The translations under genes were made by a program, and so were the position numbers. A DNA stretch of 32,741 nt, taken from positions 5,051-37,791 of the forward strand of contig CAZRZS010000002.1 in NCBI GenBank assembly GCA_964604685.1, read 5' to 3'. How positions within the stretch are numbered: the first letter of the stretch is position 1; each line of letters opens with the position of its first letter. The notes beneath the pieces are model-generated. The model ran no database searches and was not told the origin of the DNA. It saw nothing but the letters and a program-made list of their open reading frames with translations. This stretch comes from an uncultured Gammaproteobacteria bacterium (GTDB lineage: Bacteria; Patescibacteriota; Patescibacteriia; Magasanikbacterales; UBA922). Below are positions 1,177 through 32,741 of this stretch, one piece after another.

Positions 1177-1758
1177 TTATTCGCCAAACCTCTTATACTC
1201 ATGAATCACATATTCTCTTCCGCCGAACCAGTGCTCAATCTCGTGCTTGGCTTCTTCAGCAGTTTCCGAGGCGTGAACAATGTTCATCACGGCTCGCTTT
1301 TCAGCGTTAGCAATGGCCGGAGAGTCATTGGAATAATCCCCGCGGATGGTGCCCATGTCCGCCAAATAAGGCAAAGTATTACCACAAATTTTACGCACCA
1401 TGTCAACCGCATGCACGCCTTCCACAACCAGCCGGATTAACGGAGCCGAGATCATATAATCAACCAGCCAGCCACGCACCATTTTGCCGATTTCCAAATC
1501 ACTGTCCGTGCCTAACTCTTTTTTCGCCTCAACGTCATATTTTTCATAAGTGGTAAGCGTCTTCTGGCCTAGACGGCGAATCCAGGTCTCATCTTTGGGA
1601 TAATGGTTGTCAATCTGCTCATGGTTGGGTTGGAACATTTCCAAAGCCACGACTTTCAAATCACGCTGTTCAAAACGACTAATTACTTCTCCAATTAATC
1701 CCTTCTTAACTCCGTCGGGCTTTATCATTACAAAGGTCTTTTCTTGTTTAAAATCCAT
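1177..1758 (-). CDS. ndk: Nucleoside diphosphate kinase, long form (193 aa)
   Basis: Has TFVMIKPDGV, GTIRGD and NIVHAS (catalytic His) motifs. An insertion of about 40 aa lies between the HY..K.. region and the LIRLVVEG strand, relative to canonical NDKs of about 140-150 aa. Confidence 0.92.
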   Translation of the reverse strand: MDFKQEKTFVMIKPDGVKKGLIGEVISRFEQRDLKVVALEMFQPNHEQIDNHYPKDETWIRRLGQKTLTTYEKYDVEAKKELGTDSDLEIGKMVRGWLVDYMISAPLIRLVVEGVHAVDMVRKICGNTLPYLADMGTIRGDYSNDSPAIANAEKRAVMNIVHASETAEEAKHEIEHWFGGREYVIHEYKRFGE

Positions 1759-1802
1759 ATATTTAAATATTATTTAAAAGTGGCCTCATTATATATTAAA
1801 AA

Positions 1803-4076
1803 TCAAAGTTTGTCAATCTCTTTTAAAAAACTCGTCCCCTCTTCTCTGACATATTCAACATCATCTTCATCATCCGACGGATCAGAAAATACTGTACCTC
1901 CGCCTATAGTATTCAAATCAATTAATTTTTTATCAATCTCATCCAAAAACATAGACGGACCTTGTAAATATCCGCCAAAACCGCCCATGAGTGGATAGGT
2001 AAGATGTAAATATTTTTTAGCCCGGGTGACTGCCACATAAAACAAACGGCGTTCTTCTTCTATTTCATGGCTACTCCTCACCCGTTCAATGGGAAATTGA
2101 CCTTGGGCCAAGTTTATGACAAAGACGGCGTCCCATTCCAAACCCTTGGCTTGATGGATAGTAGATAAAATCAACATTTCCTCTTTATTATATTCATTAT
2201 CTTGAACTTTTTTAGCATTGTAACTCTCGTGCAAACTAGCTTCAGCTAAAAACTGATTTAAATCCGGCTGGCGTTCGGCATACAAAGCCAATTGCTCTAA
2301 ATCTTGCAAACGTTCTCGATAATCTGGATATTCGTTTTCCAAATATTCTACGTATTTTGAATCCAAAATCTCCGCAATTAAATCACTCGGCTTCCCTCTC
2401 CTATGAGTGGAGGGCAGCCTGCCTGCCGGCAAGGCAGGGGTGTGGTCTGTCCGTTCCAAAACCCCCTCCTCACCTCCCCCTTGTAGGGGGAGGGAAATTA
2501 ATTTTTCATAAATCTGCAAAAAATCATTCCAACCCATTTGACCGCGAGCTGATAAATGCGAACCTAAATTAGCGAGGTCTTCAATATTGTCCAAATCTCT
2601 AACTTCCATGATAATCCTTTCAGCACTGACTGGGCCAATCCCCACTTGCATATTCAGCACCCGGCTCCAAGCCATTGCGTCAGCCAAATTATTTACAATT
2701 TTTAAATATGACAAAACATCTTTGATATGAGCACGTTCAAAAAAACGCAAACCACCGCGATAGTCATAGGGAATATCCCGCTTAGTCAATTCCATTTCTA
2801 AAGCTTGAGAGTGATAAGCGGCGCGAAAAAGCACAGACATCTTATTCATAGCCACACCTTCATCACGCAGTTCTAAAACACGGTCGGTTATAAACTGGGC
2901 TTCTTCCAAATTATCAGCAAAGGGATGGACTTCAGGTTTAATAAACTTTTCTTGCAAAGAAGAAAGATTTTTTTTGTACTGATTTAAATTATTAGCAATA
3001 ATATTATTGGCCAAATTTAAAATATCTGGAGTGGAGCGATAATTTGTTTCCAATTTAAAAATTTTAGCATTTTTATATTTTTTTTCAAAAGCTAAAATAT
3101 TTTGGATATCTGCCGCACGAAATGAATAGATGCTTTGGGCATCATCCCCGACTACTAACAAGTTTTGATGTTTTGAAGCTAATAAATCTATAATTGAAGC
3201 TTGAATTTTGTTAGTATCTTGATATTCGTCAACAAGAATATACTTAAATTGCTGGCTAAATTTATCTTTAATTTTAGGTGACTTAACTAAAAGTAAGTAG
3301 AGATTGACTAGCAAATCATCAAAATCCATGACATTGGCCTCAAGTTTTCTTTTTTGATAATCCTCGGCAATGCGTTTGATAACATCACCAATGGCTAGAA
3401 AATTGGGGTGCAGTAAATCCAAAGTATCTTCAATAGTAGTTTCAGCATTGCGCGCATAGGAGATGATTGCTTGCAAGACTTTGGGTGAAGGAAAACGTTT
3501 CTCTTTCCGATCAATCCCCTCCTGTTTTAAACAGAGCTTAAGTAAATCCAAACTGTCTTGGCTGTCTAAAATTGTAAATCCAGCACCAGAACTCGCTCCA
3601 CTCGTTTGGTGCTGGGCTGAATTATTTTTATAACCCAATAGATAGGCATACTGACAAAGAATTTTGTAGGCAATATGATGAAAAGTACCCGACCAAGGCA
3701 ATATTATCCCCCTCTTACCAATCACCGCCACAGCGGGACCCCGCCTCAAGGCGGTGGGAAGGGGCTCGGGGGGAGTTGCCGAGGTTCCATTTTCCCCCCC
3801 TTTAATAAAGGGAGGGTAGCCTGCCTGTCGGCAGACAGGGGGGAATTTTGGCAACAGTTTTTCTACTCTCTCAATCATTTCTTTGGCCGCTTTATTGGTA
3901 AATGTCACCAATAAAATATTTTCTGGACAGACACCTTGCTCTAATAAATAGGCCACGCGATAAGTAATGGTGCGCGTTTTGCCGCTCCCGGCTCCGGCCA
4001 AGACTAAACACGGGCCGTTTCCTTCAAAAACGACCCGCTGCTGTTCCAAATTTAAATCTTTTTGAAAATCAACCAT
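1803..4076 (-). CDS. uvrD: UvrD/PcrA-type superfamily 1 DNA helicase carrying three in-frame repeat insertions
   Basis: Walker A AGAGSGKT, TFTNKAAKEM, GTFHH, VDEYQDTN, VGDDAQSIYSFRAAD, ETNYRS and VAVTRAKK motifs appear in canonical order. GC-rich segments at about 3697-3850, 3580-3615 and 2391-2497 interrupt it without breaking the frame. Confidence 0.93.
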   Translation of the reverse strand: MVDFQKDLNLEQQRVVFEGNGPCLVLAGAGSGKTRTITYRVAYLLEQGVCPENILLVTFTNKAAKEMIERVEKLLPKFPPVCRQAGYPPFIKGGENGTSATPPEPLPTALRRGPAVAVIGKRGIILPWSGTFHHIAYKILCQYAYLLGYKNNSAQHQTSGASSGAGFTILDSQDSLDLLKLCLKQEGIDRKEKRFPSPKVLQAIISYARNAETTIEDTLDLLHPNFLAIGDVIKRIAEDYQKRKLEANVMDFDDLLVNLYLLLVKSPKIKDKFSQQFKYILVDEYQDTNKIQASIIDLLASKHQNLLVVGDDAQSIYSFRAADIQNILAFEKKYKNAKIFKLETNYRSTPDILNLANNIIANNLNQYKKNLSSLQEKFIKPEVHPFADNLEEAQFITDRVLELRDEGVAMNKMSVLFRAAYHSQALEMELTKRDIPYDYRGGLRFFERAHIKDVLSYLKIVNNLADAMAWSRVLNMQVGIGPVSAERIIMEVRDLDNIEDLANLGSHLSARGQMGWNDFLQIYEKLISLPLQGGGEEGVLERTDHTPALPAGRLPSTHRRGKPSDLIAEILDSKYVEYLENEYPDYRERLQDLEQLALYAERQPDLNQFLAEASLHESYNAKKVQDNEYNKEEMLILSTIHQAKGLEWDAVFVINLAQGQFPIERVRSSHEIEEERRLFYVAVTRAKKYLHLTYPLMGGFGGYLQGPSMFLDEIDKKLIDLNTIGGGTVFSDPSDDEDDVEYVREEGTSFLKEIDKL
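2409..2442 (-). repeat. Hairpin module B, copy in uvrD (site 2)
   Basis: Exact reverse complement of the 34-nt tgt copy. Confidence 0.9.
2456..2496 (-). repeat. Hairpin module C, uvrD copy (site 2)
   Basis: Reverse complement ttccctccccctacaagggggaggtgaggagggggttttgg aligns with tgt module C apart from a few substitutions. Confidence 0.85.
3580..3615 (-). repeat. Isolated 8-bp-stem hairpin inside uvrD
   Basis: ccagcacc (3580-3587) pairs with ggtgctgg (3608-3615). It encodes the extra residues QHQTSGASSGAG just before the FTILD motif. Confidence 0.55.
3727..3817 (-). repeat. GC-rich hairpin cluster in uvrD insertion site 1
   Basis: ccgcc-tcaa-ggcgg (3751-3764), ctcgg-N9-ccgag (3774-3792) and ccccccc-tttaataaa-gggaggg (3794-3817). 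It lies adjacent to the module B variant. Confidence 0.7.
3811..3843 (-). repeat. Hairpin module B variant, copy in uvrD (site 1)
   Basis: ggagggtagcctgcctgtcggcagacagggggg compared with ggagggcagcctgcctgccggcaaggcaggggtg. It is one nt shorter, so it is read in a different frame. Confidence 0.8.
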
Positions 4077-4103
4077 AGTCGCCTTATTTTACCATTAAAC
4101 TTC

Positions 4104-4970
4104 CTAATCCTCAACAACCAACACTACCCGCCTGCCCTCTTTCACGTTCCCATCGTTCCAATCATGAATGGCAAATAATAAATCCTGATAATAATAGGCA
4201 AAATTTTCTCCCCATTGGGTGCCAGGGTCATTGGTTATAAATTTCTCATCAGTATAACCGCGGATGATTAAAGCATGATATTCTGGCCCATCACCGCGAA
4301 AATACGGATTAGGCAAATCCTTGCCATGGGCTAAAACCAAGACTGGCTTGCCTGCAGTAATAAATTTTTTAATATCATCTATAATAGGATTTTCAATAAT
4401 TTTTAACCCCACCCTACCCTCCCCGGAACTTGTCCCGAGTTTCATCTCGGGAAGGGGAGGGGAAGGGAGGGGTTGCGCCAATTTTAGATACTCCTCCGCC
4501 ATTTGTTTCACTTTCTCCATCTCAATACTATTCCCCCACCCCTGCGCTTCTTCCCACTCCACCATTTTCAAAATTTCGTCACGAGAAAATAATGGACTTA
4601 GATTATAGTTTTTATAATAAGCGTCAAGCATTAAAACGGCCGCTTCTTCACAGGCATCTTGCCAGGGCTGTTCCCAATTTTTTTCCGGGGCTTGGGAGGT
4701 GAAGGGAACGGCGAGATTCACTGTGTCATTCCGAGCGAAATCCGAATGAAATGAGGATGTAGTCGAGGAATCCCTTTCAACCACTACACTAGTTTCTAAA
4801 TTTCCTAGTTTCTTAGTTTCTATATTATTTTCGTAGTTCGTAATCTCGCTTGTCCCGAGCGAAGTCGAGGAATCTTTCGTAGTTCGCACATAAATAAAAA
4901 TTGTCCCAAGCAAAAACAACCCGCTTAAAATAAGACAGGAGTAATTAAATATCTTGTATTCTTTCTTCAT
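4104..4970 (-). CDS. Membrane-anchored C39-like (YvpB/Peptidase_C39_2-type) cysteine peptidase
   Basis: N-terminal TM segment (CLILSGLFLLGTIFIYV). FTSQAPEKNWEQPWQDACEEAAVLMLDAY contains the Cys motif and HALIIRGY is the candidate His. It carries repeat modules in-frame. Confidence 0.75.
   Translation of the reverse strand: MKKEYKIFNYSCLILSGLFLLGTIFIYVRTTKDSSTSLGTSEITNYENNIETKKLGNLETSVVVERDSSTTSSFHSDFARNDTVNLAVPFTSQAPEKNWEQPWQDACEEAAVLMLDAYYKNYNLSPLFSRDEILKMVEWEEAQGWGNSIEMEKVKQMAEEYLKLAQPLPSPPLPEMKLGTSSGEGRVGLKIIENPIIDDIKKFITAGKPVLVLAHGKDLPNPYFRGDGPEYHALIIRGYTDEKFITNDPGTQWGENFAYYYQDLLFAIHDWNDGNVKEGRRVVLVVED
4417..4461 (+). repeat. Hairpin module A, copy in the peptidase gene (antisense to the gene)
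   Basis: Identical 45-nt string to 5384-5428. The minus-strand gene translates it as [15 protein letters not shown]. Confidence 0.9.
4725..4773 (-). repeat. Module E copy 1 (gtcattccgagcgaa...gtcgaggaatcc) in the peptidase gene
   Basis: Shares gtc..ccgagcgaa and gtcgaggaatc with copy 2 and has about 21 extra internal nt. It is translated as DSSTTSSFHSDFARND. Confidence 0.7.
4852..4874 (-). repeat. Module E copy 2 in the peptidase gene
   Basis: gtcccgagcgaagtcgaggaatc. It is flanked by the 12-nt direct repeat tttcgtagttcg (4829-4840 and 4875-4886). Confidence 0.7.
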
Positions 4971-4989
4971 ATCACCAGTGTATCAAGAA

Positions 4990-5018
4990 TTGATTTTTTT
5001 CGCAAAATACTCTAAACT
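4990..5018 (+). promoter_or_regulatory. Candidate tgt promoter (TTGATT-17-TAAACT) only 8 nt before the ATG
   Basis: TTGATT at 4990-4995, a 17-nt spacer and TAAACT at 5013-5018, with the ATG at 5027. No SD sequence is present. This implies a leaderless or nearly leaderless mRNA. Confidence 0.45.
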
Positions 5019-5020
5019 GA

Positions 5021-7094
<2,074 letters not shown>

Positions 7095-7104
<10 letters not shown>

Positions 7105-7122
7105 GCCGAAGCTCAGTTTTTT
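7095..7122. terminator. Bidirectional intrinsic terminator between convergent genes
   Basis: aaaaaa-CTGAGC-cgaa-GCTCAG-tttttt. The yhhQ stop codon lies in the 5' arm, and the minus-strand 71-aa ORF stop lies at the end of the T-run. Confidence 0.85.
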
Positions 7123-7336
7123 AATTCATTCCACCAAATTCTTTACCACCCGTCATCTGCCTCCATAATCTTTCTGCTTCTTCTCTATTTTTTGGGTTAG
7201 ACCTCTTTGATTGTTTTTCTCTTTTTTTAGCTTCAACTTCAAAACCTGAAGGATCAACTGATCTTAAACTACCTTTAGCACCTTCAGGTACCCCTCTTCT
7301 AACTGCCCCCTTATTATGCCAACCAATTACTGACAT
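7121..7336 (-). CDS. Small basic hypothetical protein (71 aa)
   Basis: ORF is bounded by terminators on both sides. It is Lys/Arg/Glu-rich and I recognise no family. Confidence 0.5.
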   Translation of the reverse strand: MSVIGWHNKGAVRRGVPEGAKGSLRSVDPSGFEVEAKKREKQSKRSNPKNREEAERLWRQMTGGKEFGGMN

Positions 7337-7380
7337 ATATTTATGGTTAATAATAAGTAATAAAAGTATAACATATTATT

Positions 7381-7409
7381 AAAAAAACCTCCAATAAGAA
7401 GGTTTTTTC
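7381..7409 (-). terminator. Intrinsic terminator closing the femAB-to-queA operon
   Basis: Minus strand reads aaaaaACCTTCttattGGAGGTttttttt. The stem contains a U-G pair that would be an A-C mismatch on the plus strand, which supports minus-strand function. Confidence 0.75.
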
Positions 7410-7418
7410 AATATCTGT

Positions 7419-7577
7419 TTAGGCTTCAGCTTCCTCATTAGTAGTTTCATCATCACTGCCAGCTGTTTCAGCAGGAGCTTCTTCACCACTTTCAGCTTCT
7501 GTTTCAGGAGCTGTAGTAGTAGCCTCTTCTTCGGTACCCTCATCAGTAACAGGGCCCATTGTTGTATCCTCATCCAT
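7419..7577 (-). CDS. Possible 52-aa highly acidic peptide (MDEDTTMGPVTDEGTEEEATTTAPETEAESGEEAPAETAGSDDETTNEEAEA)
   Basis: Hand translation of the minus strand; it falls below the ORF-track size cutoff. Its TAA stop lies 10 nt before the terminator hairpin, whereas the competing 64-aa frame reads through that hairpin. No SD sequence is present. Confidence 0.35.
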   Translation of the reverse strand: MDEDTTMGPVTDEGTEEEATTTAPETEAESGEEAPAETAGSDDETTNEEAEA

Positions 7578-7632
7578 AGAAAAGAAGATTAAGAATTAAC
7601 GGTCTATAGTTTATCACAGATTACTATTCTTG

Positions 7633-8703
7633 TCAAGATGTTATCAACATGCCATCCCCAAAGCTATAAAAACGATATTTTTCCTTTATTGCCTGCTGAT
7701 AGCAATGCAACATAAATTCCCTATTTCCCACAAAGGCAGAGACTAACATAAGCAGGGTGGATTTAGGCAAATGAAAATTAGTAATTAAGGCGTCAATGAT
7801 TTTAAATTGAAAACCTGGGGTAATAAACAAATTTATCTCGCCTTGATATGGTTCAAGTCTCTCGTCAGCATAGCCAGCCTGATGTGCCAGACCTTCCAAA
7901 GTACGCACAGTAGTTGTACCTACAACAATCACTCGTCTGCCTTCGCTCTTCGCCTGGTTTATAGCCATAGCTGTGCCAAAATTAAGCTCCACCCATTCAC
8001 TGTGCATCCGATGTTCTTCAATCTCTTCGCTTTTAACCGGCAAAAAAGTACCTAAACCCACATGCAAAGTAATTTCCGCTATTTCCACCCCCTTAGCTCG
8101 AATTTTCTCTATCAACTCTTTGGTAAAATGGAAACCAGCCGTGGGTGCGGCCACTGAACCTTCCTGCTTGGCATAGATAGTTTGATAATCAGCCAAATCT
8201 ACCGGCTGTTTTTTAATATATGGCGGTACAGGCACTTCGCCGCAGTTATTGGCTTTTTGTCGAACCACTTCATCATTATCTGAAAACTGAACTAAAATGG
8301 TGCCATCTTTTTCTTTCAACATAACATCGCAGTAAAAATCAGAAGCAAACTGCAGGCGTAGGCCATTTTGTACATGCCTACCGGGTTTAGCCAAAACTTG
8401 CCAAACCCCAAGGTTTTCCATCGGTCGAACTAAAAAGATTTCCACAGGCTTTCCATGTTCGCGCAATACCTCGCCTTCGGGAGTAATTAGCTGGCCATAT
8501 AACCGAGCGCGAAAAACTTTGGAATTGTTGCAAACTAATAAATCTCCGGTTTTTAGATAATCAAGGAAATCATAAAAATGACGGTGTTCCACCGTCTGAG
8601 TTGTTTTATTTACTACCATGAGGCGTGAGTGATCACGCGGCCATAGAGGCTCCTGGGCAATCAACTCTCTAGGTAGATTATAATCAAAATCTGCTGTTTT
8701 CAT
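7633..8703 (-). CDS. queA: S-adenosylmethionine:tRNA ribosyltransferase-isomerase
   Basis: N-terminus reads DFDYNLPRELIAQEPLWPRDHSRLMV. AAPTAGFHFT and GTTTVRTLE motifs are present, and the 356-aa length is typical. Confidence 0.92.
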   Translation of the reverse strand: MKTADFDYNLPRELIAQEPLWPRDHSRLMVVNKTTQTVEHRHFYDFLDYLKTGDLLVCNNSKVFRARLYGQLITPEGEVLREHGKPVEIFLVRPMENLGVWQVLAKPGRHVQNGLRLQFASDFYCDVMLKEKDGTILVQFSDNDEVVRQKANNCGEVPVPPYIKKQPVDLADYQTIYAKQEGSVAAPTAGFHFTKELIEKIRAKGVEIAEITLHVGLGTFLPVKSEEIEEHRMHSEWVELNFGTAMAINQAKSEGRRVIVVGTTTVRTLEGLAHQAGYADERLEPYQGEINLFITPGFQFKIIDALITNFHLPKSTLLMLVSAFVGNREFMLHCYQQAIKEKYRFYSFGDGMLITS

Positions 8704-9746
8704 AAATTTAAAAATTGCGCACGATTTCTATTATGGTTCTCTAAATTTTTAGCATATTTCACTTCACCTTCAGAAGTTGTCAGAAAATACCAGTCATTAT
8801 TTTTCTCTGGATAAATGGCCGCTTTGATTGATTCCAAGCTCGGATTGCAAATAGGTCCAAAAGGCAAGCCCGGATACTTATAGGTATTCCACGGTGAATT
8901 AAAATTACGCTCTTCTTGAGTAGTGAAAACATCACCAGTTTTACCTAAAGCATAGTGAACCGTGGAATCAGCTTGTAATGCCCAGTTCAAATCATAGCGG
9001 CGCCAAAAGATATCAGCCACCTTTTTCTTATCTTCCAACTCCTTCACTTCTTTTTCTAAAACAGATGCCATAGTTAAAACTTCATAAAATGTCCGCCCGC
9101 TTTTCTCCATGTCCTCCCACAGCTTATCTGTAATTTGATTCTCACGTTCTTGTAATAATCGCAAGATAATATCTGCGACTGTAGCATTTTTGTAAATGCG
9201 GTAGGTTTCTGGAGCTAAATAGCCTTCGTAGCTGGCAAACCATGGCTTATCTTCTAAAATTTTTAAATCTAAATCAATCTCTGGTGCAGACTCAGCCGCT
9301 AGCTTATAATTCACAGCCGGTAAACCCACATATTCAGTAATCTCTTCAGCTTGAAACCTGCCTTGACTTTCAAAATACATACTAATATCACGAATTGTCC
9401 AACCGGGAATAATCGTAATTGTGGCTTCACTTAAGCCAGGTTGACTGAGAGCCTTAGCCACGCGGGACAAAGTAATTGGCGCAACCACTTCAAACTCACC
9501 ATAATTTACTTTCTTATCCAAACCTTTGAAAATTAAATACTTTTTAAACAACCAGCTATTGCGGATAATTTGCTCCTCTTGCAAACGCGTAACTAAATCA
9601 CCCACTGACTCGCCTGACTTAACTTCAAAAACAACTTTATCCACGCCCTTCTGTGCTTCGGCTGTGTAGAGTTCCGAAAGAAAAAACCAGCCAGCAATAA
9701 CTAGGCAGGCAATAATAATCCCCAAAAGTATTTTGTTTAAATTCAT
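8700..9746 (-). CDS. mltG: Endolytic murein transglycosylase MltG (YceG-like)
   Basis: N-terminal TM segment, then ASVLEKE, ADSTVHYALG and NTYKYPGLPFGPICNPS motifs. It overlaps queA by 4 nt. Confidence 0.9.
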   Translation of the reverse strand: MNLNKILLGIIIACLVIAGWFFLSELYTAEAQKGVDKVVFEVKSGESVGDLVTRLQEEQIIRNSWLFKKYLIFKGLDKKVNYGEFEVVAPITLSRVAKALSQPGLSEATITIIPGWTIRDISMYFESQGRFQAEEITEYVGLPAVNYKLAAESAPEIDLDLKILEDKPWFASYEGYLAPETYRIYKNATVADIILRLLQERENQITDKLWEDMEKSGRTFYEVLTMASVLEKEVKELEDKKKVADIFWRRYDLNWALQADSTVHYALGKTGDVFTTQEERNFNSPWNTYKYPGLPFGPICNPSLESIKAAIYPEKNNDWYFLTTSEGEVKYAKNLENHNRNRAQFLNL

Positions 9747-13838: not shown

Positions 13839-14330
13839 CTATCTTACAACTACAATCTGATCACTATTTTCTGATTCACAAGCATATACTGAAATTGCAC
13901 CTGTCGTACCAACTGACAAAGTATAACCAGTATAATTAGCAGACCAAATACCTTGACCATTTGGACTTGTTGGTATAGCGCCAAGGTAACCAGCTGTTTG
14001 TAAACCGGATAAATCAACACAAGTTGTATCACCAGTTACGTTGGTGTCACAATAAGCATTCTGGTCATCACATCCTATTGCGGCCGTGCCAATCATATAA
14101 ACATTACCAGCGCTTAAAGCTTGTATTGTCGCTAAATTATAACCACCATTGTCCACTTGATATAAATTAATTGCATGGGACAATTCGCTGATTTCTTGCC
14201 AGCGTACAGAGTCGCGTGAATCCTGAAAACGCGTTAAAGGATCCAAAGCGACAAAGACCACGGCTGCCAAAATTGCAATAATGGCAATCACAATCAAAAG
14301 CTCAATGAGCGTAAAACCTTTGTGCCTCAT
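13839..14330 (-). CDS. Type IV pilin, major-pilin-sized paralogue 2 (163 aa)
   Basis: MRHKG|FTLIELLIVIAIIAILAAV is a class III signal with Glu at +5. The C-terminal half has four Cys and shares the C.DL.GL...GYLG..P..P motif with the other pilins. Confidence 0.9.
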   Translation of the reverse strand: MRHKGFTLIELLIVIAIIAILAAVVFVALDPLTRFQDSRDSVRWQEISELSHAINLYQVDNGGYNLATIQALSAGNVYMIGTAAIGCDDQNAYCDTNVTGDTTCVDLSGLQTAGYLGAIPTSPNGQGIWSANYTGYTLSVGTTGAISVYACESENSDQIVVVR

Positions 14331-14361
14331 AAAGTTTTGGATTAAAAAATAAAATTATTTT

Positions 14362-14859
14362 TTATCTTGAAACGGAAATAGCACCAGTATTTTCTGATTC
14401 ACAAGCCTGAATTGTAATAATGCCTGTACTCGCTTTCTTCAAAGTATAACCTGTTATTGTCTCATCCCAAGTAGCATTACCTGTTGGACTGACAGGCACC
14501 GAACCAAGATATCCTTGACTGGCTAGACCAGTTAAATCTACACAGTCTGTAGTATTAATAATAGCCACATCACAATTTCCAGCATTATAAGCAGTATTAC
14601 AAGCAGAAACTGCCGTACCAATCATATAGACAGTATCATTCACCAAATTGCTAATGGCCATTAAATAATATCCACCATTATCGATTTGATTAATTTTAAT
14701 CGCCGACAATAAAGCGGTGGTATCTTGCCAGCGTGAAGCATCACGTGCATCCTGAAAACGCGTTAAAGGATCTAAAGCTACAAAGACCACGGCTGCCAAA
14801 ATTGCGATAATGGCAATCACGATTAATAATTCAATTAAAGTAAAACCTTTTCGTTGCAT
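14362..14859 (-). CDS. Type IV pilin, major-pilin-sized paralogue 1 (165 aa)
   Basis: MQRKG|FTLIELLIVIAIIAILAAVVFVALDPLTRFQD. The first 35 or so residues are almost identical to the downstream paralogue. Confidence 0.9.
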   Translation of the reverse strand: MQRKGFTLIELLIVIAIIAILAAVVFVALDPLTRFQDARDASRWQDTTALLSAIKINQIDNGGYYLMAISNLVNDTVYMIGTAVSACNTAYNAGNCDVAIINTTDCVDLTGLASQGYLGSVPVSPTGNATWDETITGYTLKKASTGIITIQACESENTGAISVSR

Positions 14860-14870
14860 ATAATTTTTAC

Positions 14871-16208
14871 TTAAAAATTAAAATTGCTACTTGTAACAGT
14901 TACAGCTTCAGTGGATGAAGACTGGACATTAAAATTAAATTCGGGAATTTGTTCTAATTGTTGTTGAATCTGTAAAGGCACATCTCTTACCTCTTGACTA
15001 TGCTGCCAAAATAAATAAGCAACCAATAAACCTCCAACTATTATAACTAACAATAAAATAATTAACAAAAGACGTGTGTGAGTTTTCTGTGCTTCTTCCT
15101 CTTGGCCTGATATCTTTTCCTCATCAATCACTAAATTGGTTTTTTTAGAAAGAGGCTTTTCTTCTTTTAAATCTTTAAGTATGGGTATGCTAGGATCAGT
15201 ACTTTCCCAATGATTGTGTAAACCTCGCAGGCCCAAGCCAATTGCCTCTATATACTCCAAAGGGACCTTTACATCTAGAGATTTGGCATTGCCAATTTGC
15301 ACCGGTAATTTAACATTCTCTTCTAAATATTTATTCAAACCTTTTAACTGGCTAGTGCCGCCAATTAAAACTAACTTTTGCACTTCCATTCCAGTTTGCT
15401 CTTTAAAATACTCTACTAAAGTTATAATTTCCTTACTTATTGTACTTAATTCTTTTTCCAGAGCTTTTACCACCAGTTTACTCTTACTTTTCAAGCCATC
15501 TTTAATTTTAGCCGCTTCCGCTTTCTTTTCATCTAATTTAACGGCTCCGGCCACGGCCGTCGTCAAATTGTTGCCAGCTATATTTATCACTTCTTCATAA
15601 TGTAATCCATTTTTGTCAAACACTGCTAAATAAGTAGTTGTAGCGCCCAGATCTACTAGGCAAACCGGCTCTTTGGGCAAAGTAGAAAACAAATCTCGAA
15701 AACTTGCCAAAATTTCTACATCTAAAAACTGCACCTCAAATTTATTTTTCTTAAAAAATCTCAACCACTCCTTAACCACATCTTTACTGGCAGCTGCTAC
15801 TAAAACCTCTGTCCCATCCTTTTTTTCTTCTAAAACCCGATAATCATAAACTAAACCATCTTCTACTAGTGGAATATTCTTTACGACTTCAGTTTTAATT
15901 AACTCTTCTCTTGCTTTCTTGCTATGCGCCGACAAAATAAAATTTCGTAGATAGACCTGGGATTCGGGCAAAGCAAAAATTATTTTTCTACCAGTTATGG
16001 CTCTTGGCTTGGCCATCTTAAATAATTGCTTTAAAGCCTGAGACAGTTTAATTTCATCTTTTATTCTGCCACGCTCAACTATACCAGCCTCCAATTTCAT
16101 CCGGCCTAAATTTTTTACCTTCACATGCAAACCAAAACCCTTCAACTCTGCCACCTCCATAGTCTGGTCAGCAATGTCCAAGCCAATGACTTTCTTAGTT
16201 AAAAACAT
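14871..16208 (-). CDS. pilM: PilM actin-like ATPase fused to a PilN-like transmembrane tail
   Basis: VIGLDIADQTMEVAEL, VDLGATTTYLAVF and LIGGTSQLKGL are sugar-kinase/actin-fold motifs. A C-terminal TM segment reads LLLIILLLVIIVGGLLVAYLFW. I prefer the ATG at 16208 (MFLTKK) over the track's TTG at 16232. Confidence 0.85.
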   Translation of the reverse strand: MFLTKKVIGLDIADQTMEVAELKGFGLHVKVKNLGRMKLEAGIVERGRIKDEIKLSQALKQLFKMAKPRAITGRKIIFALPESQVYLRNFILSAHSKKAREELIKTEVVKNIPLVEDGLVYDYRVLEEKKDGTEVLVAAASKDVVKEWLRFFKKNKFEVQFLDVEILASFRDLFSTLPKEPVCLVDLGATTTYLAVFDKNGLHYEEVINIAGNNLTTAVAGAVKLDEKKAEAAKIKDGLKSKSKLVVKALEKELSTISKEIITLVEYFKEQTGMEVQKLVLIGGTSQLKGLNKYLEENVKLPVQIGNAKSLDVKVPLEYIEAIGLGLRGLHNHWESTDPSIPILKDLKEEKPLSKKTNLVIDEEKISGQEEEAQKTHTRLLLIILLLVIIVGGLLVAYLFWQHSQEVRDVPLQIQQQLEQIPEFNFNVQSSSTEAVTVTSSNFNF

Positions 16209-16210
16209 AG

Positions 16211-16603
16211 TTAATTTTCTTCTTCCTGCCAAGAATTAAGGACAATAGTATCACCGTTTAAAGTGGCCTTGACTAACAATTTGTTATTATATTCACCCAC
16301 ACTGGCCGCTACTGCTATTGCTCGTTCAAAACCATTACTAGTTACTGATATTATACAGGAATTTTGGCCAATGTTCAAAGTCTCGCCGGAATAGTTTTCG
16401 TCTAAATACAAACGGCGTAAAGCTTCTTCGGCACAACCTTCAGCCAAAGCCTGTGCTTCATTACCTTTTTGTGAAGTCCAACCCATATCTAAATCACCCA
16501 AACCTAAAATAATAGCCGAAAAAGCCATTAACAAAACTGCCGTACTGACAATGACAATAGTCAGCAAAGCAACCATACCTCGTTTGTCTTTTACAACTAT
16601 CAT
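16211..16603 (-). CDS. PilX-like accessory pilus protein (130 aa)
   Basis: KRGMVALLTIVIVSTAVLLMAF hydrophobic N-terminus followed by AQALAEGCAEEALRRL. The same helix motif opens the 1116-aa protein. There is no Glu at +5. Confidence 0.6.
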   Translation of the reverse strand: MIVVKDKRGMVALLTIVIVSTAVLLMAFSAIILGLGDLDMGWTSQKGNEAQALAEGCAEEALRRLYLDENYSGETLNIGQNSCIISVTSNGFERAIAVAASVGEYNNKLLVKATLNGDTIVLNSWQEEEN

Positions 16604-16604
16604 A

Positions 16605-17117
16605 CTATTGTCTTAAGCTCACAGCTGTCTGCAGGCTCTGGTCATAGCTAAACTCAACATCACCGTCAAAATTATTAAACTCCACAGTTAAAGCAACTCC
16701 AATATTTTCTTTACTAGCTCCGCCTGTCAAATTGGTAAAAACTAAATTTGTCACCCTGACTTCATCACTCGTTATGGGTATAGCGCCACTTGTACCTTGA
16801 TTGATTTGTAATACCCCATCATCAACCGAAAGGTCAATAACTGTAGGATTTAAACTAATAGAAGCCATACTTAAAGACAAAACACCTGGATCTAAAGCAA
16901 AAGTTGAACTATCTAAATTAACCCCATTGGCCGCTTCTATCTTTTGACTGATTAAATCTAAAGCTACTCGTGCATTCGCCTGGACCTCCTGAACTACATA
17001 GGTTTTATTACGTGAATCAGAAATATGTAAAGCAAAACTGACAAATGCCAACATCACACCGCCAATTATGGTAATATATATCAAAGTTTCAATTAAGGTA
17101 AAGCCACGCTTATTCAT
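16605..17117 (-). CDS. Minor pseudopilin (PilW/GspJ-like, 170 aa)
   Basis: MNKRG|FTLIETLIYITIIGGVMLAF prepilin signal with Glu at +5. Confidence 0.8.
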   Translation of the reverse strand: MNKRGFTLIETLIYITIIGGVMLAFVSFALHISDSRNKTYVVQEVQANARVALDLISQKIEAANGVNLDSSTFALDPGVLSLSMASISLNPTVIDLSVDDGVLQINQGTSGAIPITSDEVRVTNLVFTNLTGGASKENIGVALTVEFNNFDGDVEFSYDQSLQTAVSLRQ

Positions 17118-17120
17118 ATT

Positions 17121-18059
17121 TTATTTGCTAAGCTGGATAATTTCCCCTCCTTCTGCGCCACAAGCTATGACCTGTAGTTGCCCGGCGGCCTGCTTTTTAA
17201 CTACATAATATGTTTGTTCAGCACTGCCTACCGAAGGATCAAAAGGTATAGTGGATAATTTACTACTTAAGGCCCCTGATAAATCTAAACAAGCAGTTTG
17301 TGTCTGCTGACCAGTACCTAAATTAATCTTAATAAAATAATCACCATTGTCATTAGTCCAACCAGTCTGTGAACCATCACCATTCAAACCACTGCGATAT
17401 TCAGGATCAGGACCGGTAGGACCAACTTCATCCATCAAAAACTTAACCGTGCCAGAACCATTATACAAAAGCAATTGCACAAAAAAATAATCCCCCAAAC
17501 TATTCTTATTAATATTATAACTATTGCTATACCAAGTGTAGTTACTGGTAGTGCTATCAGTCCTGATATTGGCAGCATCAACAAAATCATAATCAGTATA
17601 AGAAGAAGCATTGCCAATACGCAAACGTAACTGACCACTACAGCTGCCATCACAATCTAAAACTGCCGAAACTGTTAAAACGGAAAAATCACTCACTGCT
17701 GAAGCATTAAACCAATTACGCACTGTATAGGTGTTGTTAGAGTAATACTTTAAAGTCTGATTGGAATTGTGATAAGCAATGTCCATATTGCTTTCACCAC
17801 CACATCTCACATCACAACCACTGCCAGCCGTGCCTAACATTCTTAAACTGGTATCAATACCAGCTGGTAAAATCCCCCGCTGGTCAACTTGCTCTAAACG
17901 GATGGCATCAATAATAGAGTTAATATCATTCCAACGCCGAGAATTACGGGCGTCCTGAAAACGTTGCAAAGGATTAAGGGCAACAAAGACCACTGCCGCT
18001 AAAACAGCGATAATCGCAATCACGATTAATAATTCAATCAAAGTAAAACCTTTTTTCAT
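17121..18059 (-). CDS. Type IV pilin with an inserted central domain of about 190 aa (312 aa)
   Basis: MKKG|FTLIELLIVIAIIAVLAAVVFVALNPLQRFQD. The C-terminus CLDLSG...IPFDPS......TYYV......G.L.V.ACGAEGGE matches the C-terminus of the neighbouring 482-aa pilin. Confidence 0.88.
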   Translation of the reverse strand: MKKGFTLIELLIVIAIIAVLAAVVFVALNPLQRFQDARNSRRWNDINSIIDAIRLEQVDQRGILPAGIDTSLRMLGTAGSGCDVRCGGESNMDIAYHNSNQTLKYYSNNTYTVRNWFNASAVSDFSVLTVSAVLDCDGSCSGQLRLRIGNASSYTDYDFVDAANIRTDSTTSNYTWYSNSYNINKNSLGDYFFVQLLLYNGSGTVKFLMDEVGPTGPDPEYRSGLNGDGSQTGWTNDNGDYFIKINLGTGQQTQTACLDLSGALSSKLSTIPFDPSVGSAEQTYYVVKKQAAGQLQVIACGAEGGEIIQLSK

Positions 18060-18060
18060 A

Positions 18061-19509
18061 TTATCTTGTTACTTTTATTTCCTCCCCTTCTGCGGCACAA
18101 GCTTGGACATTAACTTGCCCGGTTTCATCGCGCTGCAAAGCATAATATGTTTTATTACTATCACCCAGAGAAGGATCAAAAGGTATTTGAGGTAAATGAG
18201 AGACTAAAATAGAACCTAGGTCAAGACAACTATCCACCAAAACATCACGACCCCCGCCAGCACTGGCTATTCCAACTGTCACACTTTTCAATATCGGACT
18301 ATAAACTGCCCGATCAGTATTAAAATTCACTTGATATTGAAAATATTGATTATCAGCCAAATTAGTTAAATTCAAAGCAGGCAAGCCAATTGTAGAATTA
18401 TTTAACTCTGTGTAATAGGTAGCAGCTGTACCATCAGGTCCGATAAATGATTCACCACTACAGGCATTGTCAGCACAAGAGCGGACTTGAAAACGTAGAC
18501 GATTAGCCCCCCGGCGATAATGAGACAAAACTTCATCTGGTGAAAGTGCACGGTTATAAATAGCGACCTCATCCATACTGCCGTGAAAATAACTATTTTG
18601 TTTACCTAATTGCACAGGTAGATTGTTGATATTAATATCCCAACTAACTGGTGAATCATCGATTAAGACCCCGTTGGCATATAAAGAAACTTTGTCATTT
18701 GCCTCAAACACACCAACTAGATGTGTCCATCCTGTACCTAAATAATATGGGCCAGAAGCAGCATAACCAGTATTATTGGCATTTCTGACGAAAAAATAGA
18801 CTGACCTAATTTTATGTAAACTCAAAGAAAAAGAACCACCTTTAGCATAACCTATACCCTTGGTTATTATGCCAGCATAAGAAACAGTTGGATTAGTTAA
18901 CTTTTTTACCCAAGCTTCAACAGTAAAATCACCAGACAAGTTTAGACTTGAAGCATTACCCGCATCTATGTAATCACTACTGCCAGCAAAACCTATCGCT
19001 CTATTGAATTTACCAGTTTGTCCGTAAAGACTACCATTGTATGTCCCTGCATTACCACTACCAGAACTATCAGTAATCGTCCCGGAAGTTTCATTTAAGT
19101 GGTAAAGTAACACATTGCCACTCATGTTGGCATTACCAGAGTTATAACTAGACTCACTTGCCTGATTATTAGGCAATTCTTTATAACTAGGTTGACTTGG
19201 ACTCCAATATAAAGTAGTCCAAGCACTCAAGGTGCTGGCAGAAAATATCTGCGAGGTATAGGTGCCACTTGTACCTGAAGCTAATTTAACTCCAGATTCT
19301 GTTCCGATCCACTGTGTATTAATATAACTGCCAGCATTTTGGTAAAGCCGTATAGCGCCGGCAATAGCATCCACATCTGACCAACGTTGGACATTACGCG
19401 TCTCCTTAAAACGCTGCAGAGGATTAAGAGCAACAAAAACCACTGCCGCTAAAACAGCAATAATCGCAATCACGATTAATAATTCAATTAAAGTAAAGCC
19501 TTTTTTCAT
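18061..19509 (-). CDS. Type IV pilin carrying a LamG/concanavalin-like lectin-fold domain (482 aa)
   Basis: Same prepilin N-terminus as the 312-aa pilin. The central region LYHLNETSGT..DSSG.GN.GT......G..G.A..F.G..DYI.....SL.LSGDFTVEAWV...SLYANGVL....FHGSMDEVAIYNRALS..EV is the Laminin_G_3 pattern (about nt 18505-19122). Confidence 0.88.
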   Translation of the reverse strand: MKKGFTLIELLIVIAIIAVLAAVVFVALNPLQRFKETRNVQRWSDVDAIAGAIRLYQNAGSYINTQWIGTESGVKLASGTSGTYTSQIFSASTLSAWTTLYWSPSQPSYKELPNNQASESSYNSGNANMSGNVLLYHLNETSGTITDSSGSGNAGTYNGSLYGQTGKFNRAIGFAGSSDYIDAGNASSLNLSGDFTVEAWVKKLTNPTVSYAGIITKGIGYAKGGSFSLSLHKIRSVYFFVRNANNTGYAASGPYYLGTGWTHLVGVFEANDKVSLYANGVLIDDSPVSWDININNLPVQLGKQNSYFHGSMDEVAIYNRALSPDEVLSHYRRGANRLRFQVRSCADNACSGESFIGPDGTAATYYTELNNSTIGLPALNLTNLADNQYFQYQVNFNTDRAVYSPILKSVTVGIASAGGGRDVLVDSCLDLGSILVSHLPQIPFDPSLGDSNKTYYALQRDETGQVNVQACAAEGEEIKVTR

Positions 19510-19512
19510 AAG

Positions 19513-22863: not shown

Positions 22864-22864
22864 A

Positions 22865-23335: not shown

Positions 23336-23337
23336 AA

Positions 23338-24423: not shown

Positions 24424-24438
24424 AAAAAATAATTAATT

Positions 24439-32342: not shown

Positions 32343-32741
32343 TTATCGCCTATACACTACCAACGTTTCTCTGGCCAATTTCTCTCCTGAATATCGCTTT
32401 AATTCCTCTGGCGCTTTTATACTCAAATCATATCTGACATCTTCATTTGTTAAACCAGTCTGAATAACTTCAGCCATCTGCTCAAAATTTTCCGGATCAA
32501 AATATATGGCAGCTTCACCGAGAATTTCCGGCAAACATGAACTGTTGGAAGAGGCCACAGGCACACCATAGGTCATAGCTTCTAAAGGAGGCAGGCCAAA
32601 ACCTTCATACAAACTAGGAAAAACATACAACTTCGCTTGTTTATACAATCCCACTAATTCCTCATCAGAAACAAAGTCAGTGAACACAACGTTTCCTCCC
32701 CTTCCCGAGATGAAACTCGGGACAAGTTCCGGGGAGGGCAG
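32343..32741 (-). CDS. GT4-family glycosyltransferase, C-terminal part; the 5' end runs off the window through a repeat module
   Basis: FPSLYEGFGLPPLEAMTYGVPV is the GT-B/GT4 EX7E region. The frame stays open upstream of the track's GTG start (32687) for all 18 remaining codons ([18 protein letters not shown]). Confidence 0.85.
   Translation of the reverse strand: MPSPELVPSFISGRGGNVVFTDFVSDEELVGLYKQAKLYVFPSLYEGFGLPPLEAMTYGVPVASSNSSCLPEILGEAAIYFDPENFEQMAEVIQTGLTNEDVRYDLSIKAPEELKRYSGEKLARETLVVYRR
32695..32738 (-). repeat. Hairpin module A, copy in the glycosyltransferase gene
   Basis: Reverse complement of module A. It is followed at the window edge by cag, which reverse-complements to ctg, the same module B junction (ggctgccctcc) seen in tgt. 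Confidence 0.88.

What the first reader, a model, noticed from the sequence alone, without database searches (positions are those of the whole stretch)
3697..3850. uvrD insertion site 1: GC-rich multi-hairpin block of about 150 nt between motif Ia and the GTFHH motif
...KLLPKF[PPVCRQAGYPPFIKGGENGTSATPPEPLPTALRRGPAVAVIGKRGIILP]WSGTFHH.... The block holds a module B variant (3811-3843). It is one nt shorter than the other copies, so it is read in another frame (PVCRQAGYPP rather than [10 protein letters not shown]). It also holds three more hairpins. The GC content is clearly higher than in the flanking AT-rich coding DNA. Three independent insertions in one essential helicase, none breaking the frame, argue for selection that tolerates only frame-preserving events.
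Basis: partly seen in the sequence, partly recalled or inferred. Interest (0 to 1): 0.75.

Follow-up and report, generated by a model that had tools for sequence, protein, structure and literature searches.

The report
Nested hairpin repeats inserted in uvrD
A 138-base GC-rich stretch inside the UvrD/PcrA helicase gene of an AT-rich Magasanikbacteria (candidate phyla radiation) genome is a mosaic of small palindromic repeats that also occur in unrelated genes. It is read through in frame as an extra, probably floppy, 45-residue loop, much like the "selfish DNA in genes" known from Rickettsia.

Summary
Window 3708-3845 is 61-63% GC in a 38.6% GC genome, folds far better than shuffles, and adds 45 residues between helicase motifs Ia and Ib. 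The closest orthologue and 94 of 120 homologues lack these residues.

The block is not one insertion. It is a nested mosaic of at least four repeat modules:
- a 20-nt palindrome ("B core") placed after GTAG;
- a C-run/G-run hairpin;
- an outer hairpin module "X";
- an inner hairpin "E" sitting in the loop of X.

Each of the three sequence-specific modules (B, X, E) has copies in other genes or genomes, in both orientations and in different reading frames. The C-run/G-run hairpin belongs to a generic class with no specific copy found. Filled and empty versions of the same parent element show that the B core, at 20-21 nt, is a unit of its own.

Only one sense frame of the block is free of stops, and that is the frame used. 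AlphaFold gives the segment no structure (pLDDT about 31-35).

Best reading: non-autonomous palindromic repeats of the RPE / intragenic-REP kind, kept only where they stay in frame in a tolerant loop. What mobilises them is unknown, and no transposase lies in the window. This is a new member of a known kind, and I found no earlier report for CPR bacteria.

The parts
1803..4076 (-). Host gene: UvrD/PcrA-type SF1 helicase, 757 aa, intact ORF
   Evidence: Pfam UvrD-helicase, UvrD_C and AAA_19. Best homologues are Candidatus Magasanikbacteria. The AF2 core matches PcrA/UvrD with TM 0.77-0.80.
3708..3845 (-). Site-1 insertion block, the finding itself. It is a mosaic of nested hairpin modules, translated as residues 78-123 (FPPVCRQAGYPPFIKGGENGTSATPPEPLPTALRRGPAVAVIGKRG).
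   Evidence: Net +45 aa against L081. GC 0.61, flat over codon positions (0.62/0.62/0.58), against host 0.37 (0.49/0.29/0.33). pLDDT below 50 and coil for residues 78-122. The phmmer alignment to PcrA breaks at query 75 to 165.
3820..3839 (.). B core, 20-nt form (CCTGCCTGTCGGCAGACAGG), directly 3' of GGGAGGGTAG (3810-3819)
   Evidence: Copies at 2409-2446 and 5352-5389, and in 8 metagenome contigs. Filled and empty parent elements differ by exactly the 21-nt core. The exact variant recurs in L093 5313-5334.
3794..3816 (.). C-run/G-run hairpin (CCCCCCCTTTA / TAAAGGGAGGG). Its G arm carries the GTAG in front of the B core.
   Evidence: Inverted repeat of 11 nt, 91% complementary. The same hairpin-plus-B arrangement is seen at 2394-2431 (family D16) and in L084, L085, L087, L088 and L091.
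3705..3792 (.). Module X, the outer hairpin (TATCCCCCTCTTACCAA ... GGGGGGAGTTGCCGAGGTT). Its loop holds module E.
   Evidence: Four aligned copies: window; L092 at the same uvrD site with a short loop; L088 295-375 with a B core after TTACCAA; L088 375-430 empty.
3722..3760 (.). Module E, the inner hairpin (TCACCGCCACAGCGGGACCCCGCCTCAAGGCGGTGGGAAG)
   Evidence: A homologous copy lies in the C39-peptidase gene of another Magasanikbacterium (L093 about 1395-1440; 22 of 23 identical core, E = 3.5e-5). There it is read in the opposite orientation, as SPPQRDPVLMAGR.
2388..2498 (-). uvrD site-2 insertion: a composite of a C/G hairpin, the B core (21 nt) and module D
   Evidence: Absent in L081. The same composite, in the same order, lies in an intergenic stretch at L091 598-700 (94% over 51 nt and 91% over 35 nt). 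pLDDT below 50 for residues 532-559.
3582..3623 (-). uvrD site-3 insertion (14 aa). It overlaps a hairpin with an 11-bp stem at 3580-3615.
   Evidence: Absent in all 21 aligned orthologues. RNA fold. pLDDT below 50 for residues 154-164. No other copy was found.
4404..4478 (-). In-frame insertion in the C39-like peptidase gene: module C plus a tail, in the 'empty' state (no B core)
   Evidence: 95.8% identical over 72 nt to L089 7239-7310. Junction GGGAGGGTAG|GGTGGGGTT.
5348..5560 (+). In-frame insertion of about 70 aa in tgt: B core, module C, and a 75-nt tandem duplication of D-type hairpins
   Evidence: (families D5, D6, I3). The first 81 nt are 98.8% identical to L089 7260-7340, where they sit in a glycosyltransferase in the opposite orientation.
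6102..6182 (+). Second in-frame insertion in tgt: two C/G hairpins forming one long palindrome
32692..32741 (-). Module C copy, in frame, in a GT1 glycosyltransferase that runs off the end of the window
   Evidence: Inverted repeats I1 and I2. Frame 0 is open through the module. Pfam Glycos_transf_1.

Best explanation
SHOWN. The block is DNA of a dispersed family of small GC-rich palindromic repeat modules, added to a surface loop of UvrD. Each module is about 20-45 nt, and most have a C-rich 5' arm and a G-rich 3' arm. The modules nest: a new palindrome sits inside or next to an older one. This built a 138-nt mosaic of B core, C/G hairpin, and X with E in its loop.

INFERRED.
- The copies arise at the DNA level by a non-autonomous, trans-mobilised or copy-and-paste process.
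- Purifying selection then removes every insertion that shifts the frame, brings a stop, or hits a structured part of the protein. What remains sits in frame in tolerant loops.
- The mRNA is read through, so UvrD carries an extra Pro/Gly-rich, disordered loop of 45 residues between motifs Ia and Ib, with no function of its own.

MOST LIKELY MOBILISER, a weak inference (about 0.25). A single-strand, hairpin-recognising enzyme of the HUH/Y1 type, as RAYT is for REPs. The reasons are precise filled and empty sites, no consistent target duplication, a mostly conserved (T/C)AG 5' of the B core, and insertion into hairpin loops.
For: Insertion, not ancestral sequence:
- The syntenic locus of the closest relative (L081, UvrD 81% identical where aligned) is empty at all six complete insertion sites in uvrD, the C39 gene and tgt. 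It has no module match in 22 kb.
- 94 of 120 homologues have the canonical 18-residue loop.

Repeat family. Every sequence-specific module of the block has copies elsewhere:
- B in 3 window sites and 8 metagenome contigs;
- X in L092 and twice in L088;
- E in the C39 gene of L093.

The unit of copying is DNA, not protein. The same DNA is read in both orientations and in several frames:
- [33 protein letters not shown] and LPPLPAGRQVGKGE for B;
- [15 protein letters not shown] and [14 protein letters not shown] for C.
GC is flat over codon positions, and codon choice differs from the host's.

Nesting:
- The same parent element occurs with and without the 21-nt B core at ...GGGAGGGTAG|GGTGGGGTT.
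- X occurs empty, with B, or with E after TTACCAA.

Intergenic copies also exist, so there is no coding requirement: 20 genic against 15 non-genic hairpin clusters.

Frame filter: only 1 of the 3 sense frames is open.

Loop tolerance:
- pLDDT is 31-35 with no secondary structure for residues 78-122, while the core matches PcrA/UvrD.
- 26 of 120 orthologues carry expansions at this same loop.
- The four whose DNA was read have four different hairpin sequences there.
Against: - No transposase or other mobiliser lies in the 32.7-kb window. The rest of the genome is not available.
- No consistent target-site duplication was found. The TTGCC repeats flanking the insert in the window, L105 and L106 would give an out-of-frame ancestor.
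- GTAG in front of the B core is only half conserved: 4 T against 4 C in metagenome copies, two window copies have GCAG, and one L088 copy follows CCAA.
- There is no close strain with an empty site 1, so the event itself is not observed.
- Translation of the block is inferred from the open frame only.
- The window and the distant orthologue L092 share 17 of 17 identical bases at the start of module X at the same site, although third-codon identity of the genes is 0.49. Simple random insertion does not explain this.
Confidence: 0.75

Rival explanations
1. The modules do not transpose. They spread and grow by replication template switching at quasi-palindromes, slippage, and short-patch gene conversion or recombination between existing copies. 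No dedicated enzyme is involved.
For: - A 75-nt tandem duplication inside the tgt insertion, 98% identical (family D5).
- Contig L108 joins tgt to the distant GT1 gene exactly through the 50-nt inverted copies of module C. This points to recombination between copies, or an assembly join at the repeat.
- There is no TSD and no transposase in the window.
- Modules lie preferentially inside or beside older modules.
Against: - Near-identical composites of 81-105 nt lie in unrelated genes and genomes with no flanking homology. Conversion alone cannot seed these.
- The same 20-21-nt core sits at a precise junction in several parents.
Confidence: 0.2
2. The hairpins are kept by selection as nucleic-acid signals, and their presence in genes is functional rather than selfish. 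Candidate signals are DNA-uptake sequences, RNase III or stability sites, or pause or gyrase sites.
For: - The arms CCCTCCCC/GGGGAGGG are far over-represented: 7-9 copies per 7-mer against about 1.2 expected.
- Module starts stay identical although host genes are near saturation at silent sites.
- Intergenic copies sit 3' of genes.
- Intragenic REPs have been noted to favour repair genes, UvrD among them (PMC3733652).
- The window encodes a type IV pilus cluster.
Against: - The close relative L081 has none at all in 22 kb of the same genes.
- There is no terminator-like site in the block and no Rfam family at threshold.
- The arms occur almost only as pairs, so the hairpin is the unit, not the word.
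- Content at the same loop differs between orthologues.
Confidence: 0.08
3. The extra 45 residues are a lineage-specific functional protein insertion, such as a linker or partner-binding loop, selected at the protein level. On this view the palindromes are incidental.
For: The loop between Ia and Ib is expanded in 26 of 120 orthologues, often with Pro/Gly-rich peptides. The ORF is intact in two assemblies.
Against: - The same DNA is read in other frames and in the opposite orientation in other proteins.
- The peptides at this loop are unrelated among orthologues.
- There is no codon-position structure.
- No predicted structure.
- The closest orthologue lacks it.
Confidence: 0.04
4. The block is not translated. 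It is removed from the RNA, or bypassed by the ribosome as with the byp elements of yeast mitochondria. Alternatively it is an assembly artefact.
For: It is a strong local RNA structure. Contigs break at these repeats, for example at the window end and at both ends of L108.
Against: - All seven intragenic copies in the window keep the frame and lack stops. Excised or bypassed elements would not need this.
- At 138 nt the block is far smaller than known bacterial introns, and it has no Rfam match.
- An independent contig is identical at 7489 of 7490 bases.
Confidence: 0.03

Closest known systems
Rickettsia palindromic elements (RPE; Ogata et al. 2000 and 2002, as summarised in PMC10969869 and PMC3733652)
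   Same: - Palindromic repeats inserted in frame in unrelated housekeeping genes of a small, AT-rich genome.
- Translated as extra peptide segments judged compatible with the fold.
- Several families.
- Absent from orthologues.
   Different: - A different phylum (Patescibacteria/CPR).
- No sequence relation is expected, and none was tested.
- The units here are much smaller (20-45 nt against about 100-150 nt).
- They are strongly GC-rich with C-run/G-run arms, and they build mosaics by nesting.
- Copies occur in both orientations.
REP / REPIN elements with RAYT transposases, and intragenic GTAG/CGTC REPs (PMC3733652; PMC2817692; PMC3116915)
   Same: - Imperfect palindromes of 20-40 nt.
- A tetranucleotide tag at the 5' end; the B core in this block follows GTAG.
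- Found as singletons, inverted doublets (L088 2086-2198) and clusters.
- Mostly located 3' of genes, with some inside genes and read in frame. Repair genes, UvrD/Rep helicases among them, are noted as carriers.
   Different: - The tag is only (T/C)AG and is not invariant.
- No RAYT was seen, though only 32.7 kb is available.
- Copy number per genome is unknown.
- A far higher share of copies is intragenic, and there is extensive nesting.
Small dispersed repeats (SDR) of cyanobacteria (Elhai et al. 2008, recalled from memory; named in PMC3116915)
   Same: Very small (about 20-27 nt) palindromic units that appear as precise insertions within other repeats and hairpins, giving nested mosaics.
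   Different: A different phylum and different sequences. I could not read that paper here, so the comparison rests on recall.
GC clusters of yeast mitochondria (from memory) and coding palindromes in mitochondrial genes of Nematomorpha (PMC6649704)
   Same: GC-rich or perfect palindromes embedded in frame in the protein genes of an AT-rich, compact genome.
   Different: Those are organellar. The Nematomorpha repeats are long (up to 284 bp) and not modular. There is no shared sequence.
Intragenic MITEs with in-frame fusions (Coxiella QMITE, PMC5896051; enterobacterial RU/ERIC, PMC2759123)
   Same: Non-autonomous repeats that can lie inside ORFs and add peptide segments.
   Different: Those have long terminal inverted repeats, target duplications and sizes of 100-300 nt. 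Here no TSD and no parent IS were found.

Membership tests
In-frame palindromic repeat insertion (RPE-like class, defined by behaviour) | The segment is absent from orthologues and the flanks align colinearly | tested here: met
   L081 is empty. 94 of 120 homologues have the canonical loop.
In-frame palindromic repeat insertion (RPE-like class, defined by behaviour) | The same DNA is repeated at unrelated loci | tested here: met
   Modules B, X and E, and the composites, are found in other genes and genomes.
In-frame palindromic repeat insertion (RPE-like class, defined by behaviour) | Palindromic, with predicted folding above chance | tested here: met
   z = -3.4 as RNA and -3.7 as DNA; 0 of 200 shuffles fold as well.
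In-frame palindromic repeat insertion (RPE-like class, defined by behaviour) | The host ORF stays open, and the insert falls in a loop compatible with the fold | tested here: met
   Intact 757-aa ORF. Coil with pLDDT below 50 at residues 78-122, with the core matching PcrA/UvrD. The surface position itself was not measured.
In-frame palindromic repeat insertion (RPE-like class, defined by behaviour) | The insert is actually translated | not testable with these tools
   This needs proteomics or ribosome profiling.
Rickettsia RPE families proper | Sequence similarity to the RPE-1 to RPE-10 consensus; Rickettsia host | not tested
   No RPE consensus was at hand. The host is a Magasanikbacterium, so it is not filed as an RPE.
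REP/REPIN-RAYT system | An imperfect palindrome of 20-40 nt | tested here: met
   The B core is 20-21 nt.
REP/REPIN-RAYT system | A conserved GTAG (or CGTC) tag at one end | tested here: inconclusive
   GTAG is present in this block and in 4 of 8 metagenome copies. GCAG is present in the other 4 and in two window copies. TTAG, AAAG and CCAA are also seen.
REP/REPIN-RAYT system | A cognate RAYT (Y1 transposase) gene in the genome, flanked by REPs | not testable with these tools
   None lies in the 32.7-kb window. The rest of the genome is not available.
REP/REPIN-RAYT system | High copy number, mostly extragenic, often in inverted doublets | tested here: inconclusive
   There are intergenic copies and one inverted doublet (L088). 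However, 20 of 35 hairpin clusters are genic, and genome-wide counts are unknown.
MITE | Terminal inverted repeats plus a target-site duplication | tested here: not met
   The arms are the stems themselves. No consistent TSD was found at any of five filled/empty comparisons.
MITE | A related autonomous IS with the same ends | not testable with these tools
   There is no IS in the window or in the fetched loci.
Known structured RNA family | An Rfam match at the gathering score | tested here: not met
   Only sub-threshold miRNA-like hairpin hits were found, and none in 3697-3850.

The most novel reading that the evidence does not exclude
The 20-21-nt B core, and likewise module E, is a free-standing mobile unit, among the smallest known. 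It is inserted precisely into the loops or G-arms of other hairpins, usually 3' of YAG, by a single-strand hairpin-specific enzyme.

Repeated nesting builds coding mosaics inside housekeeping genes across Magasanikbacteria. The same core has spread between lineages whose contigs range from 37 to 50% GC.

The recurrence of the same module X at the same UvrD loop in two distant orthologues would then reflect true target preference, not only tolerance.
Probability: 0.2. Interest if true: 0.7.

Novelty: new member of a known kind. Interest (0 to 1): 0.5.

Why it matters
CPR/Patescibacteria genomes are tiny and densely coding, and they are thought to hold little selfish DNA. Here one 32.7-kb stretch carries seven in-frame palindromic insertions in four genes, while a close relative has none. 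This shows that some CPR lineages are being actively colonised by micro-repeats that remodel protein loops.

Practical consequences:
- The repeats inflate and distort protein families built from metagenomes. Examples are Pro/Gly-rich low-complexity segments and broken profile alignments.
- They break or mis-join assemblies; contig ends and one chimeric contig lie exactly at modules.
- They may drive inversions.

The filled and empty nested sites also give a tractable system for asking how very small palindromes move.

Tried and rejected
- The genome-contig scan with the UvrD alignment returned only distant UvrDs from other phyla, because the motif patterns were too general.
- A six-frame composite peptide query of the block against the 5.8-billion-protein index found nothing, not even the protein itself. 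That tool is unsuited to short peptides.
- Scans of viral contigs: modules B and C gave no hits. The 17-mer of module X gave 11 chance hits in GC-rich phage contigs with no flank similarity. There is no sign of a phage origin.
- Rfam at a permissive E-value gave only sub-threshold miRNA-like hairpin matches.
- The terminator and promoter scan found no terminator-like site in the block.
- Target-site duplication: the TTGCC direct repeats flanking the insert in the window, L105 and L106 looked promising. Removing the insert plus one copy gives a 50-nt, out-of-frame deletion in L106, and the right-hand copy is the conserved Leu-Pro codons. Rejected.
- Similarly, TTAATT at site 2 is host sequence on both sides.
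- An exhaustive HMMER search with the tgt insert peptide found only two proteins. One was the tgt-GT chimera and the other an unrelated repeat protein. Peptide-level searches therefore badly under-count a family that is read in many frames.
- The attempt to fetch DNA beyond the window end failed. The look-up either found no record or returned a contig lying inside the window.
- I considered and set aside intein, intron and CRISPR readings, because of size, the open frame and the lack of regular spacing.
Full report
**What is there.** The window is AT-rich (38.6% GC). Its 757-aa ORF at 1803-4076 (minus strand) is a UvrD/PcrA helicase (Pfam), and the best homologues are Candidatus Magasanikbacteria, a CPR/Patescibacteria group. 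Positions 3700-3849 are 61-63% GC. Folded as RNA, the coding strand gives -77.4 kcal/mol against -63.2 +/- 4.2 for dinucleotide shuffles (z = -3.4). Folded as DNA, the + strand gives z = -3.7. No shuffle of 200 folds as well in either case. The segment lies between motif Ia (TFTNKAAKEM) and WSGTFHH.

**It is an insertion.** The syntenic locus of the closest relative was fetched as L081 (P0002; 72% identity by BLASTP, 81% over aligned columns). There UvrD has 9 residues where the window has 54, a net gain of 45 aa or 135 nt. The same relative is also empty at the two other uvrD sites, at one site in the C39-like peptidase gene, and at two sites in tgt. It has no match to any module in 22 kb. 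Among the 120 best homologues, 94 have the canonical 18-residue spacing at this loop and 26 are expanded. The window's 63 residues is the longest. phmmer against PDB sequences splits the alignment to PcrA exactly here, with query 75 jumping to 165. An independent ENA contig is identical at 7489 of 7490 bases over window 1749-9238, so this is not an assembly artefact.

**Anatomy.** The block is a mosaic, described here on the + strand.
- *3810-3843.* GGGAGGG-TAG is followed by a 20-nt palindrome, CCTGCCTGTCGGCAGACAGG, the "B core". Two other window copies (2409-2446, and 5352-5389 reversed) have a 21-nt core, CCTGCCTGCCGGCAAGGCAGG. The short form is a recurrent subtype, however. The exact 22-mer is in L093, and 20-nt cores are in L085, L087, L088 and L090.
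- *3794-3816.* A C-run/G-run hairpin. Its G arm carries the GTAG. This hairpin-plus-B arrangement recurs at 2394-2431 and in five metagenome contigs.
- *3705-3792.* Module X, TATCCCCCTCTTACCAA...GGGGGGAGTTGCCGAGGTT.
- *3722-3760.* Module E, an inner hairpin that fills the loop of X.

Module X has four alignable copies: the window; the same UvrD loop of a distant orthologue (L092/P0049) with a short loop; and two adjacent inverted copies inside a 399-aa ORF in L088. Of the two L088 copies, one is empty and one has a B core inserted after TTACCAA, the same point where E sits in the window. Module E recurs in the C39-peptidase gene of another Magasanikbacterium, where it is read in the opposite orientation as SPPQRDPVLMAGR.

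**Nesting shown directly.** The parent element "module C + tail" occurs as ...GGGGAGGGTAG|GGTGGGGTT in the window's C39 gene and in L091. It occurs as ...GGGGAGGG(T/C)AG-CCTGCCTGCCGGCAAGGCAGG-GGTGGGGTT in the window's tgt and in L084, L089 and L091. The 21-nt core is therefore a unit that is present or absent on its own. Its length of 21 nt preserves the frame, while the 20-nt form does not. Larger composites also travel as units:
- the first 81 nt of the tgt insert are 98.8% identical to a segment inserted, in the opposite orientation, in a glycosyltransferase in L089;
- the uvrD site-2 composite recurs, in the same order, in an intergenic stretch of L091.

**DNA, not protein, is what is copied.** The same modules are read in both orientations and in several frames, in UvrD, TGT, a C39-like peptidase, two GT1 glycosyltransferases, a Wzy_C-like protein and an uncharacterised ORF. 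GC in the insert is flat over codon positions (0.62/0.62/0.58), whereas the host gene shows 0.49/0.29/0.33. Codon choice also differs, for example CCC and GGG against the host's mixed Pro codons and GGT. Intergenic copies exist, typically 3' of genes: 20 genic against 15 non-genic clusters. The hairpins have a polarity. The 5' arm is C-rich in 64 perfect 7-bp stems and G-rich in 15.

**Why in frame.** Of the six frames of 3697-3852, only the frame used and one antisense frame are free of stops. All seven intragenic copies in the window keep the frame. This is what a survivorship filter would leave, and it says nothing about the insertion step itself. AlphaFold2, run with a 22-sequence alignment, gives pLDDT 31-35 and no secondary structure for residues 78-122. 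It gives low confidence for the other two inserts as well (154-164 and 532-559). The core matches PcrA/UvrD at TM 0.77-0.80. The model is only moderate overall (mean pLDDT 69), and I could not measure solvent exposure.

**A recurrent site.** DNA was read for four other expanded orthologues. Each has a different GC-rich hairpin at this loop:
- L092: a short X;
- L093: a 13-bp perfect palindrome, GTAGAGACGAGGC...;
- L105: a CTCCCCC/GGGGGAG hairpin within ACACCCC/GGGGTGT;
- L106: CCCTCCCC/GGGGAGGG.

The loop has therefore been hit repeatedly. One point is unexplained. The window and L092 share 17 of 17 identical bases at the start of X and 10 of 11 at its end, yet their uvrD genes are only 49% identical at third codon positions and closer relatives lack the insert. 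Either the same module entered the same loop twice, or the module sequence is held constant by conversion or selection.

**Mechanism.** No transposase is encoded in the window. No consistent target duplication was found. These facts, the precise filled and empty junctions, the mostly conserved (T/C)AG 5' of the B core, and insertion into hairpin loops all fit best a single-strand, hairpin-recognising mobiliser of the RAYT/IS200-IS605 type. I hold that at about 0.25 only. Template switching plus conversion is the main rival. It is supported by the 75-nt tandem duplication inside the tgt insert and by contig L108. That contig joins tgt to the GT1 gene at the far end of the window through the 50-nt inverted copies of module C.

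**Comparison with what is known.** The behaviour matches Rickettsia palindromic elements and the intragenic GTAG/CGTC REPs. For the latter, Di Nocera et al. note a bias towards repair genes, UvrD/Rep helicases among them (PMC3733652; PMC10969869). It also recalls the nested small dispersed repeats of cyanobacteria and mitochondrial GC clusters, both recalled from memory. It is not filed as an RPE, because the host differs and similarity was not tested. It is not filed as a MITE, because the TSD test was not met. REP/RAYT membership is left open, because the tag is inconclusive and a RAYT could not be tested. Eight literature searches found no report of such elements in CPR bacteria.

**Verdict.** It is a new member of a known kind, of moderate interest. 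The nested micro-palindromes and the recurrent UvrD loop are the parts worth following up.

Noticed in passing
window 5381-5430 and 32692-32741; L108 1-2257: A contig from another sample (L108) runs from window 4404 to 5431 and then, through the 50-nt inverted copy of module C, into window 32741 to 31462. It encodes a chimeric TGT(N-terminal)-GT1(C-terminal) protein, P0121. Both ends of L108 and the end of the window lie at module copies. This is either a real 27-kb inversion variant between inverted repeats or a mis-join caused by the repeat.
   Followed up: partly
window 5419-5481 and 5494-5556: There is a 75-nt tandem duplication, 98% identical, of D-type hairpins inside the tgt insertion. 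So inserts also grow by local duplication.
   Followed up: partly
window 3783-3792 / L092 10249-10266: The window and the distant orthologue P0049 carry the same module X at the same UvrD loop, with 17 of 17 identical bases. Yet the genes are 49% identical at third codon positions, and closer relatives are empty at this site. This is unexplained; it could be target preference, conversion or exchange.
   Followed up: partly
L085-L090 (metagenome contigs): The B core with its GGAGGG(T/C)AG flank occurs unchanged in contigs of 45-50% GC. Examples are between a 187-aa ORF and a 165-aa ORF (neither annotated) in L090, inside a terminator-like palindrome, and as an inverted doublet at L088 2086-2198. 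The unit is therefore not confined to the window's lineage.
   Followed up: partly
window 3675-3914 (+): A 79-aa antisense ORF spans the block. It is open only because the palindromic, stop-poor insert reads through in that frame. It is not a credible gene, but gene callers could pick it up.
   Followed up: partly
window 1177-1758 (-): The nucleoside diphosphate kinase is 193 aa, against 159 aa in three syntenic relatives, and it is strongly divergent with two extra segments. These segments are not GC-rich hairpins. It looks like a different NDK type rather than a repeat insertion.
   Followed up: partly
window 13839-26136: This is a type IV pilus-like cluster: several paralogous N_methyl pilin-like genes (repeat families D1-D3), PilM, T2SSF, a T2SSE ATPase, and large Laminin_G_3 and DUF4082 pilin-like proteins. 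It carries no GC-rich hairpin insertions, although it makes up about a third of the window. The insertions are clustered at 2.3-6.2 kb and at the window end.
   Followed up: no
L093 2375-4735 and L092 10001-12349: UvrD of other Magasanikbacteria carries up to five separate hairpin-derived insertions (proteins of 782-786 aa against 666 aa). Some sit at the same loops as in the window, and some carry the same module (SLPLQGGGEEGV) at a different site.
   Followed up: partly
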